Source: Sphyrna mokarran
Lineage: Eukaryota
DNA: 64,000 bases
Reading direction: 5' to 3'
NCBI GenBank assembly: GCA_024679065.1
Contig: JAGIQG010000001.1
Span: forward strand, 102,610,001 to 102,674,000
Shown one piece after another: positions 11,500-62,070 of the stretch (within the stretch, counting starts at the first letter, position 1; each line of letters starts with the position of its first letter). The position numbers and the translations under genes are program-made. The notes beneath the pieces are model-generated. The model was not told the origin of the DNA and ran no database searches. It saw only the letters and a list, made by a program, of their open reading frames with translations.

Positions 11500-13190
11500 A
11501 AAGGAGCCACCTTCTCACTGAGCCCGCTTGGAGACACCAGATTTCACTGGGTGGTTTTCCCTCATGGTGCTAACCACCCTGAGAAGGGAAAAGTGCTGAA
11601 GGAGGTGGAAGTTGGCTTTTAATTAGCCAGTTATATGGTTCATTTACAATCTACCAGTTTTTCAATCACTGGTGGAAGTGGAAAGGCTCCTCTCCCAATA
11701 GCTTCCCCCACCATGTTGCCAACCCTCTCACATAGCAATTTCTCAACAAAGGGCCCAAGAAACTCTGCTCAGTTGTCCCATAGGAAGCCAGGAGACCCCT
11801 CGTGCAAACACTAAGAAAGAAATGGAAGCAGGTGAGCAAGCAACTTGATTCCTGGAATCGGGAAGAAATTCAGTGACCCCACATGGGTGATCAAGGTCAG
11901 TGAATACATCTTCAATGAACATCTCTTATTCAGTAAACCACCAACATCTCACATTGCTCAGTGCACCAAAGCCCTTTATTAACCCATGAGCTATTGGGAG
12001 TTTGGCCTAACATTCAATATTTCATCTCACTCTCACACATCCACCATTGCTGCCAGCGCCACATACAATCTTCCCTGTAATTTGTAACATTGTGAAGCAA
12101 CCCAAATGTTCCCATGCAGGTTGGATCCTTTAAATTACTGTGCACTCCAAAAAAGGTTTGAGGGCACATTGTTCGCACTTAACTTTCACTCCTTTCCCAT
12201 ATCCCGAGCTATTCAACAATGACAGGCACATCACTTGAAAATATTCAACATGCTCACTAATGTTTTTCTTCCTCTTTTGCAGGATCAGGTGACTAATACC
12301 AGGAAGGAACAATAGGATGACGGGCAGGAATACATCCTCTGCAGGCTTCTGGAGAAGATGGTGCTGGACATCTGGCAATCAGCTGTGTCAGACCTCATTG
12401 CATTCAACATCATCAAGAATTTACTGCCGTATACCCCTTCTTAAATCCCAGCGCACCTCCATTCTGCTGCCTGGTGTGAAATGCAAGCTGTAGATGGTGT
12501 GAAGATGACCTCCTATTTCCCATCCCACTGCTCTTCTGCACTAATACTTACAATTATCCAAAACAGCCATTCACCAGCCACTGAAGCCATCTTCCTTAGT
12601 AAGAATAAAAGCTGCTATAGACCTCTGATGAGAAGCATCATTACTTGATCACACAGCCAGCCAGAAGCTCAGATATTGGCAAGGTGTGTACCTTAGAGGA
12701 TAGAATAGAGTCAACATATGCATATGATGAATCAACAGCCCAGGTGGGCTTCAACCAGGCAAGGAAAAGGATGAAGCATATGCCAGGTTTCGGAGTGGTA
12801 AGATCAAAGACAAATTCTGCTACATGGAACTCAGGTGAGGATTTCATTGGGTCAGCCTACAGGAGAACATTGATAATGATGCACACCAAGGAGATGGGTA
12901 CATTGGAAGGCCTGACAGACAGCATACTATTACAATCAAGGAGCATGGAGGAGTCCAACTCCAACTTAGCACATAGCTTGGAGTTCATCCTTTCCAGTGC
13001 GCTAGTGTGGCCAACTTCATGACAGCATCATTGAACCCAATAGTGAAACAGCATTTGAGTACTTACAGTCATAGCTTCCATTTCAGTACAGGCACAAATC
13101 ACCAAAGTGTCAGTACTGGAATGCAAGTTCAGACTGAATTCATGAGATTTATGATTACTATCAATATGTTTCGTGTGTTATCCATCTCAC
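11500..13190 (+). mobile_element. Harbinger remnant with Myb/SANT-like accessory gene and intron relics
   Basis: 11785-11895 encodes ARRPLVQTLRKKWKQVSKQLDSWN..RKKFSD ending at caag|gtcagt; acceptor ttttgcag at 12282 followed by an exon relic; 12645-13100 resembles the low-complexity C-terminal part. Confidence 0.6.
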
Positions 13191-13320: not shown

Positions 13321-14800
13321 TGTTATGAGAGCCTACAGACTCAAGCAACATATTTTTAGAGATTAAACAGTCCCGCTGCCTCCCACAAAACCTTCAACCA
13401 ATGCCTAATTGCACAACAAAACATGGTGGCAACATCAAGTAAAATCCTCCAGCAAACATTAAAAGAAGGGCTGACAAGAAAAAATGTCCTCGAGGGAAGG
13501 ACAAAAGAAAAAAAAAATTAAGACTTAAAGAGATATCAGAACATTGCAGGAGCAACAGCTGAGATGTCAACCTGAAGACCAGACAGCAGTCAGCACAGAT
13601 GTTAAAGCTGTAAGCAGCAGCATTGAAGCTGGTACAACTTAGGGCTCAGCAGAAACCCCAGCATTCCCAGAACCATTTCAGAATGCAGAAGCCTTGTGAC
13701 AGGCCCAGAACTGTAACAACTGGAGAAAAGACTCACAAGGTGCAGAATTGCTTCAGTATTACTCAAAACTGATCAAAAAGACCAGGTTATTACATTACTT
13801 TATGCAGTCAGATCTATTGCTGATGACTGATTCCAGGAATCAAGTTGCTTGCTCACCTGCTTCCATTTCTTTCTTAGTGTTTGCACGGGGGGTCTCCTGG
13901 CTTCCTATGGGACAACTGAGCAGAGTTTCTTGGGCCCTTTGTTGAGAAATTGCTATGTGAGAGGGTTGGCAACATGGTTGGCAAACATATGCCTGTACTC
14001 AAATGCTGTTTCACTATTGGGTTCAATGATGCTGTCATGAAGTTGGCCACACTAGCGCACTGGAAAGGATGAACTCCAAGCTATGTGCTAAGTTGGAGTT
14101 GGACTCCTCCATGCTCCTTGATTGTAATAGTATGCTGTCTGCCAGGCCTTCCAATGTACCCATCTCCTTGGTGTGCATCATTATCAATGTTCTCCTGTAG
14201 GCTGACCCAGTGAAATCCTCACCTGAGTTCCATGTAGCAGAATTTGTCTTTGATCTTACCACTCGGAAACCTGGCACATGCTTCATCCTTTTCCTTGCCT
14301 GGTTGAAGCCCACCTGGGCTGTTGATTCATCATATGCATATGTTGATAGCAAGGCAGTGGGTTGATGAGAACCCAACTTCTTATGAGGAGATCTTGCCAG
14401 CTTTTGACACTTCAGTGGCTGTTGGATTTTAATACTAGAGAGCTAAATTTAACAAAATAAAGATATGCAGAGGTCCTGTGGAGACATTGAATGAGAACAT
14501 ACAGTTTGTAGACCATAAAAACAAAAGCATACCAAAGCCTAAGCATGCCAAAAAAAGGGAAAAATGCCATTTTGAAATGCCTTTAATGAGATGGAAACAA
14601 ATTGCAGAAGCAAGAAGAGTGTCCAACATTAAGGTAGACAACTGTAGAAAAATAGAACACTTTAAAACTGTTTGTCACCCAAAAATGCTGACAACCATTA
14701 AAAAAATGGCTGAAAAGTTTGGAATAGAGCCAGGTACGAAAAGTGGAAGAATCACAAGCAAAGGAACGAGCCTCTTCGGGGAGGTCAATTATATGGTAAA
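13321..14800 (+). mobile_element. Decayed Ty3/Gypsy LTR retrotransposon (LTR end, PBS, gag)
   Basis: ...aaCA|TGGTGGCA LTR/PBS-like junction at 13423/13424; gag motifs PAFPEPF, RCRIASVLLKTDQKDQVITLLYAVRSIADD (to 13828), RAKFNK (~14445), zinc-knuckle relic NCRKIEHFKTVC (~14640-14675); frameshifts and stops. Confidence 0.75.
13829..14346 (-). repeat. Inverted templated duplication of 11710-11859 and 12711-13062
   Basis: 13829-13978 is the reverse complement of 11710-11859 (150 bp); 13995-14346 is the reverse complement of 12711-13062 (352 bp); about 99% identical. Confidence 0.95.
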
Positions 14801-21627: not shown

Positions 21628-22760
21628 GCAAAAGTGAAATACTGCAGATGCTGGAAATCTGAAATAAAGACAAAATATGCTCAAAGTACTCAGTAGGTCA
21701 GGCAGCATCTGTGAAGAAAGAGTTAATGTCTCAGATTGAGATCATCTATCATCAGAATTTCATCATGATGAAAAGTCATCTCAACCTGAAATGTTAACTT
21801 TGTTTCTCTCCAAAGACAATGCCTGATTGTCACTCCTCGGAGGAGTGGTAGATAGTGAAGAGGGGTGTTATAGTTTGCAGAGAGACTTGGACAAGTTGCA
21901 GAGCTGGGCCGAGAGGTGGCAAATGGAGTTTAATGCGGAAAAGTGTGAGGTAATTCACTTTGGCAGGAATAACAAATGTGTAGAGTATAGGGCTAATGGT
22001 AGGACTCTTAATAGTGTTGAAGAACAGAGGGATCTTGGTGTATATGTGCATAGATCCCTGAAAGTTGGCAATCAAGTCGATAAGGTTGTTAAGAAGGCAT
22101 ACGGAGTCTTAGCTTTTATTGGTAGGGGGATTGAATTTCGGAGCCGCAACGTCATGTTGCAACTGTACAAAACTCTAGTGCGGCCGCACTTGGAGTATTG
22201 TGTGCAGTTCTGGTCCCCGCATTATAAGAAAGATGTGGAGGCATTGGAGAGGGTACAGAGGAGGTTTACCAGGATGTTGCCTGGTATGGAGGGCAGGTCT
22301 TATGAAGAGAGGCTGAGGGATTTGAGGTTGTTTTCGTTAGAAAGAAGGCGGCTAAGAGGAGACCTTATTGAAACATATAAGATGATTAGAGGTTTAGATA
22401 GGGTGGACAGTGATAGCCTTTTTCCTAGGATGGAGAAAGCTGGCATGAGGGGACATAGGTTTAAATTAAGGGGTGGTGGTTATAGGACCGATGTCAGAGG
22501 TAGGTTCTTTACCCAAAGGGTGGTAAGGGTATGGAATGCCCTGCCTGTGTCAGTTGTAGATGCGTCAAGTTTGGTGGCGTTTAAGAGGTTAGTAGATACG
22601 TTTATGGAAGAAAAGAGAATGGTTTAGGTTAGAGGGTCATTGCTTTTTCCTAATTGGTCGGCGCAACATCGAAGGCCGAAGGGCCTGTTCTGCACTGTAA
22701 TGTTCTATGTTCTATGTTCTATGATCTGCTCAGAATTTTCATCAATTTTTAGTATTCTTT
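21628..22760. mobile_element. Inverted Penelope-type terminal repeat (21628-21826 and 22723-22760) interrupted by a CR1
   Basis: gagttaatgtctcagattgagat / atctcaacctgaaatgttaact inverted pair; hammerhead relic tgatgaaaagtcatctcaacctgaaatgtta; element resumes as tgatctgctcag after the CR1 tail. Confidence 0.65.
21836..22722 (+). mobile_element. Young 5'-truncated CR1 LINE; uninterrupted ORF2 C-terminal ~260 aa plus 3' UTR
   Basis: ORF 21827-22627 (LQRDLDKLQSWAERWQMEFN...LYKTLVRPHLEYCVQFWSP...WNALP); tail ggccgaagggcctgtt...(tgttcta)3; CpGs retained. Confidence 0.97.
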
Positions 22761-35290: not shown

Positions 35291-35566
35291 TGATGTAGAG
35301 ATGCCAGCGTTGGACTGGGGTAAACTCAGTAAAGTTTTACAACACCAATTTTAAATCCAACCAATTTATTTGATAGTAAATCCGCGAGCTTTCGACTTTA
35401 CAGCCTTCGTCAGGCAAATGCAGTGTTCTGATCTGCCTGATCTGTTCTGATCTGTGGCAGATCAGAACACTGCATTTGCCTGACGAAGGCTGTAAAGTCG
35501 AAAGCTCGCGGATTTACTATCAAATAAATTGGTTGGATTTAAAATTGGTGTTGTAAAACTTTACTG
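35291..35566. mobile_element. Penelope-derived insertion with perfect 111-bp inverted repeat and TSD
   Basis: Arms 35327-35437 and 35456-35566 are exact reverse complements; 18-nt spacer; TSD tgcatttttcctga (35280-35293) / tgcattttccctga (35565-35578). Confidence 0.93.
35474..35513 (+). ncRNA. Minimal type-I hammerhead ribozyme (mirror copy on minus strand 35380-35419)
   Basis: Stem I ATTTGC/GCGGAT, CTGACGA 35480-35486, extra A, stem II GGCT-GTAA-AGTC, GAAA 35500-35503, AGCT palindrome, predicted cut after C35507. Confidence 0.8.
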
Positions 35567-41933: not shown

Positions 41934-42007
41934 CTATTGGCAGCCACCATGCCTTCAATTTTTTTTAAACTTTATCCTAATCCAATTGAGTCAAATTAAA
42001 CCCAATT
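41934..42007 (-). mobile_element. 3' fragment of the U2-headed element
   Basis: 68 of 74 nt identical to 43442-43515, including the T8 tract. Confidence 0.85.
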
Positions 42008-43030: not shown

Positions 43031-43465
43031 CCATACATTTGCACTCTCATTAAAACAATATCCTTTCACTTACTGAACATCACCTGACTCCATCCCTGCC
43101 TGAAATTATCTGTTGCTGAAACCCTCATCCCTGTCTTTATTAGCTCCAGATTTCATTTTTCCAGCACGTTTCTGGTCAACCTCAAACATTCTAATGCCCA
43201 TTAATTTGTTCCAAACTCTACATGGCCTAACTTACACTAAGTTCTGTTTACCTGTCAACTGTGTCCTCACTGAATTTTATTGGGTCCCCGTAAAACATGC
43301 TTCAATGGCAAACTTCTCATCCTCGTCTTCAAATTTCTCTGTGGCCTCTTCCATCCTACCTCACTAATCTCAAATTACACTAACCTCCAAGATACTATGC
43401 TTCACTAATTCTCCTGAGGATCTCTGATTTTAATTGACCCACTATTGGCAGCCACCGTGCCTTCA

Positions 43466-43782
43466 ATTTTTTTTAAACTTTATTTCAATCCAATCAAGTC
43501 AAATTAAACCCAATTTAGAGTCCCAACAAGTTGGACATTCCCGATCCAAGCTGACAAGACAGGGCTCTCACCTCCTGTCTGGGGCTTGATCTACATCATC
43601 CAAGCTGATTGGAGTAGGTGTAGCTCCTTCCCCAAGGCTTAATCTTATTTGCACCTTAGCCAAAAGGCCAAGATGTCGCTTTAAAAAATTGCTTCAAATG
43701 ATGCTGAAATGTAACCTAATGACTTCAATCAAGTGCAACATGTTGACACTACACTTAATCTTAGCCAAAAGGCCGAGCAGCG
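43466..43782 (-). mobile_element. U2 snRNA-headed SINE-like retroelement
   Basis: Minus strand starts with U2 nt 3-37 (33/35), has a second U2 fragment (nt 7-25, 18/19) at 43655-43673, ends aataaagtttAAAAAAAA; flanked by cgtgccttca at 43456-43465 and 43781-43790. Confidence 0.8.
43748..43782 (-). pseudogene. RNU2: U2 snRNA 5' fragment (nt 3-37)
   Basis: cgctgctcggccttttggctaagattaagtgtagt versus U2 CGCTTCTCGGCCTTTTGGCTAAGATCAAGTGTAGT. Confidence 0.9.
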
Positions 43783-44379
43783 TGCCTTCAGTTACCAAAG
43801 CCCTAAGCTCGGAAATTCCCACCTCTAAAACTTCTTTGCCTCTCTAGCTTTCCTTTCTTCTTTAAGACTCTCCTTAAAGATGTTGTGATCTCTTTGACCA
43901 AGCTTTTGTTCATCCATGTTGACACCTCTTTATTTGGTGAAGTATAAAGATTGGCTTTATATTGCACTTGTGAAGTATATTAAACATGTTATAGAAATAT
44001 AAGTTGTTGTTTATTGATTTGATTGTTAATGAAGCTAATTCTATAGGAGGATGTTGACAATGATTGACGTGGACAAGTATCAGATAATGATGAGCATTGT
44101 GCTCTTTTTCTTCAGTTCTCTGTCCAAAGGGAGATCCAACCCAGGGCACCACGATCACCATTGGTAGGGCAAGAAGGCCAATTCATTGCCAACAAACACT
44201 CTTGGCTTCTTGGACAGTGGTAACTTCAAATTTTATTATTCAATATTCAATAAATTTCAATATCAATTAAACTTTGCCACATTTGTTCTTTTGGCCTCTA
44301 TTCCATTGAAAGTCTTTTATCTCTGCAGAATCTGCCTCAACCTTCTTTGCCACTTGTCCCCTTCTCAGCATTATACAGT

Positions 44380-44522: not shown

Positions 44523-45369
44523 TAAAGCAGTATGCAGCACTCATCATCAGTTTGACTATTCTGTTGCCTATACAGTATGACACCTGGGTTTATCAAGGTT
44601 TTTGATTTAACATGCCTATAGTATACTCTACTGATGCCCTTATGAAAACATATACTTGTTATATTGTATATGAGCTGAAATTTATGAGTTTTGGATTTAT
44701 GCCAAAATCCATGGCTCAACAGAAAATCCTGATCCCTCATGGTGGTATCTTCAGTTCTCTTCCCAAAGGCAGATCCAATCCAGAGCAACATGATTGCCAT
44801 CACAGGTAGGGTAAGAAAGCAGGTTCTGAATTCATCCCAGGCAGAATGGAGATCGAACCCTACACTGCTGGCACCAATCTAATCCACACTAGCCATCCAG
44901 CCAACTGGCTGCCCAAAAGAGGCAATTTGCTGTGGCAACATATGATTTTACATGCATGTTGTAGTCTGCAGCTATGAATTGTGATGGTGGAGGGTCCAAT
45001 TTCTTTCCACCCCACAGGTGACCTAGAACCTCTCCTGCTCTTATCACATAGCATTGGTGTATGTTGGAAGGTTGGGGATTGATACCCAACATGTTTGGCT
45101 GATTTATGATCCCATCTTTCTTGGTGATCAAATCCTGTAACCCACTGACCCACCGACTCAAGGATAGGGTTGCTGCACATTTCACTACTAGAGTGCCTCC
45201 ACAATGTCTACGTGCTTGGTTTAGATATTCTCTGAAATAATGTCTATGTAACATGGAGTAATGACTTTTCAGAGCATTGTATAGTTGTTGTAATGCAGAA
45301 AGAAGCAATTTTAGCCATTGGCTGCATTGGCTCTCCAAGTGTGCATTTTGAATTAGTGCCACTTCAGTC

Positions 45370-51628: not shown

Positions 51629-51922
51629 GGGCGGCACGGTAGCACAATGTAATGAATTCTGCCCTCAGGTGACTGTCTGTATGGAGTTTGCTCAGTAAAG
51701 TCTGACAACACCAATTTTAAATCCAATCGATTTATTTGACAGTAAATCTGCGAGCTTTCGGCCTTTGTGGCCTTTGTCAGGCAAATGTATGGAGTTTGCA
51801 CATTTTCCCTGTGTCCTCCTGGAGCTCTAGTTCTCTCCCACAGTCCAAAGATGTGCGGGTTGGATTACTTGAACATGCTAAATTGCCCCTTACTGTCAAG
51901 GGTATTAGCAGGGTAAATGTAT
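51629..51922 (+). mobile_element. HE1 SINE carrying a PLE mini-insertion
   Basis: gggcggcacggtagcaca head; core split at tgtatggagtttgc. Confidence 0.85.
51692..51785 (-). mobile_element. 94-bp Penelope-derived hammerhead insertion with 14-bp TSD
   Basis: TSD tgtatggagtttgc at 51678-51691 and 51786-51799; minus strand atttgc-CTGACAA-a-GGCC-ACAAA-GGCC-GAAA-GCTC-gcagat. Confidence 0.9.
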
Positions 51923-57624: not shown

Positions 57625-58212
57625 TTGCCACCTTATACCCTTACCCACAAAACTGCCACCATTAACCCTCACCCACTTACCTACCATCTTACACTCTCAT
57701 CCATTTATCCACCACCTAAACTCTCACCTATTCACCTGCCACCCTAAATCCTCACCCACTTACCTACCACTCTAAACTTTCACCCACTTACCTTCCACTC
57801 TAAACTTTCACCCACTTACCTTCCACTCTAAACTTTCACCCACTTACCTTCCACTCTAAACTTTCACCCACTTACCTTCCACTCTAAACTTTCACCCACT
57901 TACCTTCCACTCTAAACTTTCACCCACTTACCTTCCACTCTAAGCCCTCATCCACATACCTGCCACCCTAGACTCTCATCCGCTTATCTGTCACACTTAA
58001 CCCTCACCCACTTACTCACCACCCTAAACCTTCACCTATTCACCTGCCATCATAAACCCTAACCTACTTACCTGCCACATTATACCCTCACCCACTTACT
58101 TACCATCCTATATCCTTACCCACTTACCTGCCAACCTGGACTCTCACCACTTACCTGCCATCCTAAACTTTCACCCACTTACCTGCCATCCTATGCCTCA
58201 CCTACTTACCAG
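57625..58212. repeat. 28-bp minisatellite
   Basis: Unit cacccacttaccttccactctaaacttt, five perfect copies 57781-57920, degenerate flanking units. Confidence 0.95.
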
Positions 58213-61525: not shown

Positions 61526-62070
61526 ATTGTGTACATGGTGCAGACGGAGCACAATGCTGTGTACACTGTGCAGACAGAGCATACTGCTGTGGACACTGTG
61601 CAGACAGGGGATAGTATTCTTGTGTACACTGTGCAGTCAGGGCACAGTGTTGTATATATTGTACAGAAAGAGCACAGTGTTGTGTACACTGTACAGACAG
61701 AGCACACTGTTGTGTACTTCGTGCAGACAGAGCATAGTTGTTGTGTACACTGTGCAGAGTACAACATTGCTGTGTACACTGTGCAGACAGAGCACACTGT
61801 TGTTGTGTACTTTGTGCAGATAGACCACAATGCTGTTGTGTACTTTGTGCAATCTGTAAACTGTCTGTGCTGATATGTGTGCTTTTGGAGACCAGAACAC
61901 CTCATTTGCCTGACGAAGGCACAAACGCCGAAAGCTAGCCGATTTACTATCAAATAAATTGGTGTTGCCAGACTCTTACTGAGTTTACCCCAGTCCAACG
62001 CTGGCATCTCTACATCATGTGTACTTTGTGCAGACAGAGCACATTGTTGTCGTGTACACTGTGCAGACAG
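61526..62070. repeat. 30-33-bp minisatellite
   Basis: Unit approximately tgtgtacactgtgcagacagagcacactgt, about 12 copies, interrupted at 61852-62017. Confidence 0.93.
61852..62017 (+). mobile_element. Penelope-derived short insertion with hammerhead and 15-bp flanking repeat
   Basis: tgtgtactttgtgca at 61837-61851 and 62018-62032; CTGACGA 61910-61916, GGC-ACAAAC-GCC, GAAA 61930-61933; tail ccccagtccaacgctggcatctctacatca. Confidence 0.9.

What the first reader, a model, noticed from the sequence alone, without database searches (positions are those of the whole stretch)
43442..43790. U2-snRNA-headed SINE-like element with a double U2 head (SINEU/Keno-like) in a shark
Seen: the minus strand begins with U2 snRNA nt 3-37 (2 mismatches), then ~75 nt non-U2, a second U2 piece (nt 7-25, followed after 7 nt by taagattaag = nt 22-31 with the same C28T variant), a ~160-nt body with a repeated cagcttggat, AATAAA and an A8 tract; cgtgccttca lies on both sides. 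Known: Tx1-clade Keno elements insert about 37 nt into U2 genes, and snRNA-headed SINEs (SINEU) are described from crocodilians. Inference: this is a non-autonomous family born from a U2/Keno-type junction and dispersed outside U2 genes; I am not aware of a description of it in sharks.
Basis: partly seen in the sequence, partly recalled or inferred. Interest (0 to 1): 0.8.

Follow-up and report, generated by a model that had tools for sequence, protein, structure and literature searches.

The report
Shark U2-derived dimeric retroposon insertion
A 317-base piece of DNA, copied from RNA and pasted into an old shark repeat, is built from two units that each start with the front end of the splicing RNA U2, which would make it a shark counterpart of jumping elements so far described from crocodiles if it proves to have many copies.

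Summary
A 317-nt minus-strand insert (43782-43466) has two U2 heads, AATAAA, A8 and an exact 10-bp target duplication, and it interrupts an old L2-like LINE frame. Host DNA looks elasmobranch.

Three refinements:
(1) The 'non-U2' spacer is the best non-self match in the window to the element's own 3' tail (43/70 columns, 1 of 5000 shuffles). The insert is a dimer of two U2-headed units with a shared, long-diverged tail.
(2) That spacer folds back on the first U2 head (21 of 25 positions, sense strand only), covering U2's branch-point and U6-pairing bases.
(3) The 'body' resembles further U2 sequence by eye (22/32 columns), but this is not statistically supported.

A second 74-bp match 1.5 kb away includes flank, so it is most likely a local duplication, not a second insertion. 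Nothing supports a Keno-derived body, and the U2 boundary is 37-40, not sharply 37.

Best reading: one copy of a SINEU-like, probably Tx1-mobilised, U2-derived retroposon family (0.6). Copy number, the defining test, could not be run because no eukaryotic genome or repeat library was searchable. Ten literature searches found no shark description.

The parts
43781..43790 (-). 5' copy of target site duplication (10 bp exact; 14 of 16 over 43778-43793); last two bases shared with U2 nt 3-4
43745..43782 (-). Unit 1 head: U2 snRNA nt 3-37 (33/35), extendable to nt 40 (35/38)
   Evidence: Rfam alignment; by eye against reference U2
43713..43737 (-). Fold-back arm pairing with head 43774-43750 (21 of 25 positions: 15 Watson-Crick, 6 G.U; two 2x2 loops)
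43680..43741 (-). Unit 1 tail, diverged paralog of the element's 3' tail (43 of 70 columns); includes the arm and an A-T6 run at 43690-43683 where Rfam places the U2 Sm site
43652..43675 (-). Unit 2 head: U2 nt 7-25 (43673-43655, 18/19) inside a 10-bp stem with a UUUU loop
43638..43647 (-). U2 nt 22-31 piece (9/10, C28T as in head 1)
   Evidence: (family D16)
43598..43608 (-). First copy of an exact 11-nt internal repeat (second copy 43554-43544, spacing 54)
   Evidence: family D10
43533..43595 (-). Possible third, older U2-derived piece: nt 32-40-like at 43595-43588 (8/9), 25-nt insert, nt 40-71-like at 43562-43533 (22/32 columns); unproven
   Evidence: by eye; tested part not significant; no Rfam U2 hit here
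43466..43538 (-). Unit 2 tail with AATAAA (43484-43479) and A8 (43474-43467)
43456..43465 (-). 3' copy of target site duplication
43050..43465 (+). Host: decayed LINE ORF2 C-terminal region, upstream part (L2 assignment recalled from motifs, not confirmed by a call)
   Evidence: translations; no hit
43781..44010 (+). Host LINE, downstream part; reads on in frame from the upstream part once the insert and one repeat copy are left out
41934..42007 (-). 74-bp second site: last 50 nt of the insert plus 24 nt of its 3' flank, 68 of 74 identical, no extension either side; likely local duplication

Best explanation
This is a dead genomic copy of a non-autonomous, U2-derived retroposon that works like crocodilian SINEU. 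SHOWN: it was inserted as one unit, with a 10-16 bp target duplication and A tail, antisense into an older LINE; it consists of a short unit (U2 head + tail) followed by a long unit (U2 head + body + related tail); in the U2-sense RNA the first tail can pair with the first head. INFERRED: a polyadenylated Pol II RNA was reverse-transcribed at a nick by an L1-clade enzyme, most likely Tx1; the dimer arose by adding one family member to the 5' end of another (template jump or read-through of tandem copies); the tails diverged in earlier source copies, so a family with at least two lineages existed; the fold-back was kept or gained at RNA level and hides U2's branch-point and U6-pairing bases. 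With no internal promoter, transcription would come from an upstream snRNA-type or flanking promoter at a source locus elsewhere.
For: TSD and in-frame continuity of the host. Unit-1 tail vs unit-2 tail: end-anchored score 34, the best non-self match among 63,932 69-mers of the window, 1 of 5000 shuffles; unanchored 2-4 of 3000 shuffles. Tails differ at ~39% of columns, whereas the TSD copies differ at 0 of 10 (2 of 16) and head 1 differs from U2 at 2 of 35. Head-spacer duplex -30.7 kcal/mol: 1 of 3000 window 70-mers and 0 of 2000 shuffles as good; the opposite strand folds at -13.6 vs -29.7. All six transition differences from a perfect complement keep pairing as G.U and none breaks it. Of 8 arm positions where the tails differ, 6 pair only in unit 1 and 0 only in unit 2. 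Precedent: SINEU-1 subfamilies grew by repeated 5' U1/U2 additions, SINEU-1D is a dimer, SINEU-3 is an internally deleted U2, and ~10-bp TSDs occur (PMC4494074). Whale shark is reported to lack full L1 but to have Tx1 (PMC8455134 passage). Recalled, from no call: shark genome annotations list many dispersed, diverged 'U2' copies.
Against: No second independent copy in 64 kb. No relatives in translated-frame searches, GTDB scans (40, 44) or plasmid and phage BLASTN (48, 49); none of these is a eukaryotic genome collection, so they say little. The tail match leads the next 69-mer only 34 to 32, its borders were chosen after seeing the alignment, and 43-50 of 3000 random window 147-mers scored as high unanchored. 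The whole-fold control for the hairpin is weaker: 139 of 1500 window controls and 24 of 1500 shuffles fold as well, and three other sites in 128 kb pair 21-22 of 26 with the head. No partner LINE was identified.
Confidence: 0.6

Rival explanations
1. One-off chimeric retrocopy: a LINE reverse transcriptase started on some polyadenylated RNA and switched template onto U2 once or twice. No family.
For: snRNA chimeras by template switching are common and occur with L1, L2 and RTE elements (PMC4476161 passages). Only one full copy is in the window. Head 1 is much closer to U2 than anything else in the insert.
Against: It needs the tail-tail similarity, the fold-back and the shared C28T in two heads all to be chance or to pre-exist in the template. 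U2-repeat chimeras were 1 of 58 in human.
Confidence: 0.15
2. Non-autonomous Keno/Utopia derivative: U2 nt 1-37/38 from the target gene fused to the ends of a U2-targeting LINE, later dispersed.
For: The head ends near the Keno/Utopia site (37 nt in PMC6136364; downstream U2 starts at nt 39 in PMC4640811). Some vertebrate Utopia 3' ends also carry AATAAA a few bases before a T/A-rich terminus. Crocodilian Tx1-Mar families cluster with Keno and some carry U1/U2 heads.
Against: The match runs to nt 40; there is no intact U2 39+ flank; the sequence after the head is the element's own tail paralog; the body resembles U2 by eye; reptile Utopia make 20-bp TSDs. No Keno sequence could be compared.
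Confidence: 0.12
3. Retrocopy of a host-encoded variant small RNA (a diverged U2-like gene with its own promoter and Sm site), not a selfish element.
For: An A-T6 run sits between two stable hairpins, where Rfam aligns the U2 Sm site. RNA-level conservation of pairing.
Against: The T run lacks the closing G of the Rfam consensus. The Rfam score of 32 is below gathering 46 and rests on the head. The dimeric, duplicated build and A tail fit a retroposon. No octamer within one mismatch in 368 nt upstream, as expected for a copy.
Confidence: 0.1
4. A target-specific family that inserts into this L2 site, with 41934-42007 as a second, 5'-truncated insertion.
For: Both sites have the same junction. 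Two of six differences at one position pair (TG vs CA) fit independent decay of one CpG. A 7 of 8 match upstream of site 2 resembles a TSD (983 of 20000 random). SINEU-3 shows such targeting.
Against: The A tract and the following T are identical in length at both sites. Only 24 nt of flank are shared, with no significant extension on either side. The two sites are 1.5 kb apart in the same orientation and there are no other copies in 64 kb. Another short local duplicate lies nearby (44109-44178 / 44748-44820).
Confidence: 0.08

Closest known systems
SINEU-1/-2/-3 (crocodilians; Kojima 2015, PMC4494074)
   Same: U2-derived head(s), repeated 5' additions, partial internal duplications, a dimeric form (SINEU-1D), A tail, ~10-bp TSD, under 500 bp, oligo-T runs that argue against Pol III
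   Different: Elasmobranch host (the paper found none outside crocodilians); no U1 part; inserted in a LINE rather than Mariner-N4; a tail that folds back on the head is not mentioned in the text read (figures and supplement not seen); copy number unknown; sequence not compared with SINEU consensus
Keno (Tx1 clade) and Utopia, U2-targeting LINEs
   Same: U2 5' fragment ending near nt 37-38; AATAAA close to the 3' end as in some Utopia
   Different: No ORF; no intact U2 nt 39+ downstream; not in a U2 gene; head extends to nt 40; no UTR homology shown
snRNA chimeric and tailless retrocopies (Doucet 2015, PMC4476161; Noll 2015, PMC5322556)
   Same: 3'-truncated U2 5' piece, TSD, template-switch-like junctions
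   Different: Two heads and two related, long-diverged tails imply earlier rounds of copying; the downstream part is not a recognised LINE or mRNA
U2 snRNA gene (Rfam RF00004)
   Same: nt 3-40; T-rich run at the Sm-site distance
   Different: 32 bits against gathering 46; stems IIa-IV not recognisable; flanked by a TSD inside a LINE

Membership tests
SINEU | 5' head derived from U1 or U2 snRNA | tested here: met
SINEU | Short (<500 bp), non-coding, 3' A tail | tested here: met
   317 nt; A8; longest stop-free sense frame about 70 codons, with no hit for the two antisense frames searched
SINEU | Retrotransposition hallmark (TSD) | tested here: met
SINEU | Many dispersed copies sharing one structure (a retrotransposing unit, not independent chimeras) | not testable with these tools
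   No eukaryotic genome collection; one full copy in the window; indirect support
SINEU | Mobilised by Tx1 with shared target preference | not testable with these tools
   TSD length and A tail fit the L1 clade; partner not found
SINEU | Sequence homology to crocodilian SINEU bodies | not testable with these tools
   Consensus sequences not available; supplement unreadable
Keno / Utopia | Located in a U2 gene with intact U2 nt 39+ as 3' flank | tested here: not met
   3' flank is LINE sequence; best internal match to the target motif is 13/16 and not significant
Keno / Utopia | 5' junction at U2 nt 37/38 | tested here: inconclusive
   Match ends at nt 37-40
Keno / Utopia | RT and endonuclease ORF, or UTR homology | not testable with these tools
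   No ORF in the insert; no UTR sequences held
U2 snRNA gene | Full-length fold above Rfam gathering score | tested here: not met
   32 < 46 bits
Classical Pol III SINE | tRNA/5S/7SL head with internal promoter | tested here: not met
   No tRNA in the window by ARAGORN; no such Rfam hit at the locus

The most novel reading that the evidence does not exclude
Sharks carry an independently evolved family of U2-derived retroposons, a second origin of snRNA-headed SINEs. Its RNA has been selected to fold its tail back over U2's branch-point and U6-pairing bases, so that it can borrow snRNA transcription and perhaps Sm assembly without poisoning the spliceosome.
Probability: 0.2. Interest if true: 0.75.

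Novelty: new member of a known kind. Interest (0 to 1): 0.48.

Why it matters
SINEU is reported only from crocodilians in the papers seen, and how such promoter-less elements are transcribed is left open there. A shark family would show parallel origin and give many genomes in which to find source loci. It would also mean that some shark 'U2' gene annotations are mobile elements. The fold-back gives a testable idea of how a parasite can carry the catalytically active end of U2 without disturbing splicing. If it is a single chimera, it is an ordinary pseudogene.

Tried and rejected
Search for other copies through spurious translations: 0 hits for the 85-residue frame among 1.84 billion representatives; no candidate for the 51-residue frame. 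Only 2 of the possible frames were tried. Two exact-pattern scans of GTDB contigs for host contamination: 0 and 0. BLASTN against plasmids and phages: none. Rfam on the body alone: no U2 match at E<=10; with head 2 only model nt 8-25. No ribozyme family matched at the locus. The published 20-nt U2 target motif matches the body 13/16, but 196-328 of 3000 shuffles do as well, so a third U2 piece is not claimed as shown. Resemblance of both unit ends to the recalled snRNA 3'-box motif was rejected as too common (24 sites at <=1 and 275 at <=2 substitutions in the window). Site 2 as an independent insertion was rejected for lack of extension. Naming the host LINE by search failed: 0 of 30 candidates, no Pfam family; the L2 label stays recalled. 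The whale-shark repeat library (PMC8455134 supplementary file 20) and the SINEU supplement could not be read; either could hold a matching entry. Metagenome and viral contig collections stayed unchecked.

Full report
Observation. Rfam gives one U2 match in the window, 32 bits, E 0.012, below the gathering score of 46 and carried by the first 40 model positions. By eye against the reference U2 nt 1-75 printed in PMC4640811 S1 Fig, head 1 matches nt 3-37 at 33 of 35 and nt 3-40 at 35 of 38. Head 2 matches nt 7-25 at 18 of 19, and the third piece nt 22-31 at 9 of 10 with the same C28T. An exact 10-bp repeat is flush with both ends and extends to 14 of 16; such repeats occur at 6e-6 per position and spacing in this window. 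Leaving out the insert and one repeat copy gives a continuous reading across the site on the + strand. I recognise it, from recall only, as the C-terminus of an L2-type ORF2 (a GGRAF-like motif, here one residue longer). Searches did not confirm that name. The insert is therefore one retroposition event, antisense into an older LINE. A CR1 frame elsewhere in the window has its closest named relatives in sharks and rays, so an elasmobranch source is likely.

The spacer is a tail. The stretch after head 1 (43741-43680) aligns with the element's last 69 nt (43538-43470) at 43 of 70 columns. The alignment ends just before head 2 on one side and in the A tract on the other. With ends anchored it is the best non-self match among 63,932 69-mers from both strands (34, next 32), and 1 of 5000 shuffles reaches it. 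Unanchored, 2-4 of 3000 shuffles but 43-50 of 3000 random window segments do as well. The borders were chosen after seeing the alignment, so the evidence is good but not overwhelming. Reading: a ~100-nt unit (head + tail) precedes a ~215-nt unit (head + body + tail). The tails differ by ~39%, while the TSD copies and head 1 are far less diverged, so the tails split before this insertion. That is the only evidence here for a family, and it is indirect.

The spacer also folds back on the head. 43737-43713 pairs with 43774-43750 at 21 of 25 positions in one register. The duplex energy of -30.7 kcal/mol is reached by 1 of 3000 window 70-mers and 0 of 2000 shuffles. The whole-fold control is weaker (139 of 1500 and 24 of 1500), and three other sites in 128 kb pair as well with the head, so it is the adjacency that counts. 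All six transition differences from a perfect complement leave G.U pairs, none breaks a pair, and the opposite strand folds poorly (-13.6 vs -29.7). At the C28T position the arm has the G that pairs with canonical U2. Of 8 arm positions where the two tails differ, 6 pair only in unit 1, 1 in both, 1 in neither, and none only in unit 2. Either the tail began as antisense U2 and unit 2 drifted, or unit 1 gained the pairing; one locus cannot tell which. From established knowledge, the covered bases include those that pair with U6 and with the intron branch point. Head 2 forms its own 10-bp stem.

The body. By eye, 43595-43588 resembles U2 nt 32-40 (8 of 9) and, after 25 nt, 43562-43533 resembles nt 40-71 (22 of 32 columns; 6 of the 8 substitutions are transitions). 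The part that was tested, nt 39-58, is not significant, and Rfam sees nothing there. I treat a third, older U2 piece as a lead. If real, unit 1 would be an internally deleted U2 like SINEU-3, and the insert a mosaic of U2 pieces of different ages with no need for Keno.

Second site. 41934-42007 shares the last 50 nt of the insert and the first 24 nt of its 3' flank, 68 of 74 identical, with the same A tract. Similarity does not extend on either side beyond chance. Because it spans the junction, lies 1.5 kb away in the same orientation and is the only other match in 64 kb, a local DNA-level duplication is the simplest reading. It is not counted as a second insertion. A target-specific family remains a minor rival.

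Mechanism. Shown: single insertion, TSD, A tail, two heads, related tails, pairing potential. Inferred: target-primed reverse transcription by an L1-clade enzyme, since a 10-16 bp TSD with an A tail fits that clade and L2-made chimeras have 1-9 bp TSDs (PMC4476161). Tx1 is more likely than L1 because whale shark is reported to have Tx1 but no full L1 and the site lacks the TTTT/A consensus. The dimer formed by 5' addition, as documented for SINEU. Transcription would be Pol II from outside the element, since it has T runs and no tRNA head. Confidence 0.6; rivals are a one-off chimera 0.15, a Keno/Utopia derivative 0.12, a variant small-RNA retrocopy 0.10 and an L2-targeting family 0.08.

Known systems. 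It works like SINEU and meets three testable features (head, size and tail, TSD). The defining one, many copies of one structure, could not be tested, so membership is open. It fails as a Keno/Utopia insertion (no U2 39+ flank) and as a U2 gene. Searches for relatives were empty, but none covers eukaryotic genomic DNA.

Literature seen. PMC4494074: parts 1-4 of 5 (main text and start of references; figures and supplement not seen). PMC4640811: passages, part 2 of 5, S1 Fig part 1 of 8 plus searched rows, S3 Fig part 1 of 2. PMC4476161: passages and sections 5 and 8. PMC8455134: passages and supplementary file 21; the repeat library was unreadable. Passages only: PMC6136364, PMC5786205, PMC4758252, PMC5322556, PMC5381603, PMC5499810, PMC7245038, PMC10787021, bioRxiv 10.1101/2025.02.19.638963. 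Kojima and Fujiwara 2004 was not read and is cited through PMC6136364. Ten searches (listings, some showing only the top 25-40) gave no description of an snRNA-headed element in cartilaginous fishes. Repbase, Dfam and most subscription papers are outside the library, so an entry may exist.

Verdict. A real retroposed element with more internal structure than first seen; probably a shark SINEU-like family member; Keno origin unsupported; family status unproven. Interest 0.48.

Noticed in passing
window 35389-35504: Near-perfect long palindrome made of head-to-head pieces of a repeat also at 51691-51787 and 61864-62017; its Rfam microRNA hits are all below gathering and reflect the hairpin only.
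   Followed up: no
window 11707-11859 / 13829-13981 and 12711-13062 / 13995-14346: Two ~99% identical inverted duplicates, suggesting a recent local rearrangement or an assembly feature.
   Followed up: no
window 21827-22627: Young CR1-type ORF2 fragment, 266 codons open; closest named relatives are in sharks and rays.
   Followed up: partly
hits P0003 and P0013: Proteins 75% and 65% identical to that CR1 frame are labelled Klebsiella pneumoniae and Proteus mirabilis on ~1.6-kb contigs; probably vertebrate contamination in bacterial records.
   Followed up: no
window 44109-44178 / 44748-44820: Another short local duplicate (79% over 73 bp) next to the locus.
   Followed up: no
window 57626-58210 and 61527-61851: Minisatellites with 28-bp and ~30-bp units.
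   Followed up: no
window 43562-43533 and 43737-43713: Differences from U2 or from its complement are rich in A>G and C>T on the sense strand, as RNA editing before reverse transcription would also give; untested.
   Followed up: no
window 43580-43561: The 25-nt insert in the body can pair 7 bp with the U2 nt 40-46-like bases after it, a second case of inserted sequence pairing with a U2-like part; the region's fold is not better than shuffles.
   Followed up: partly
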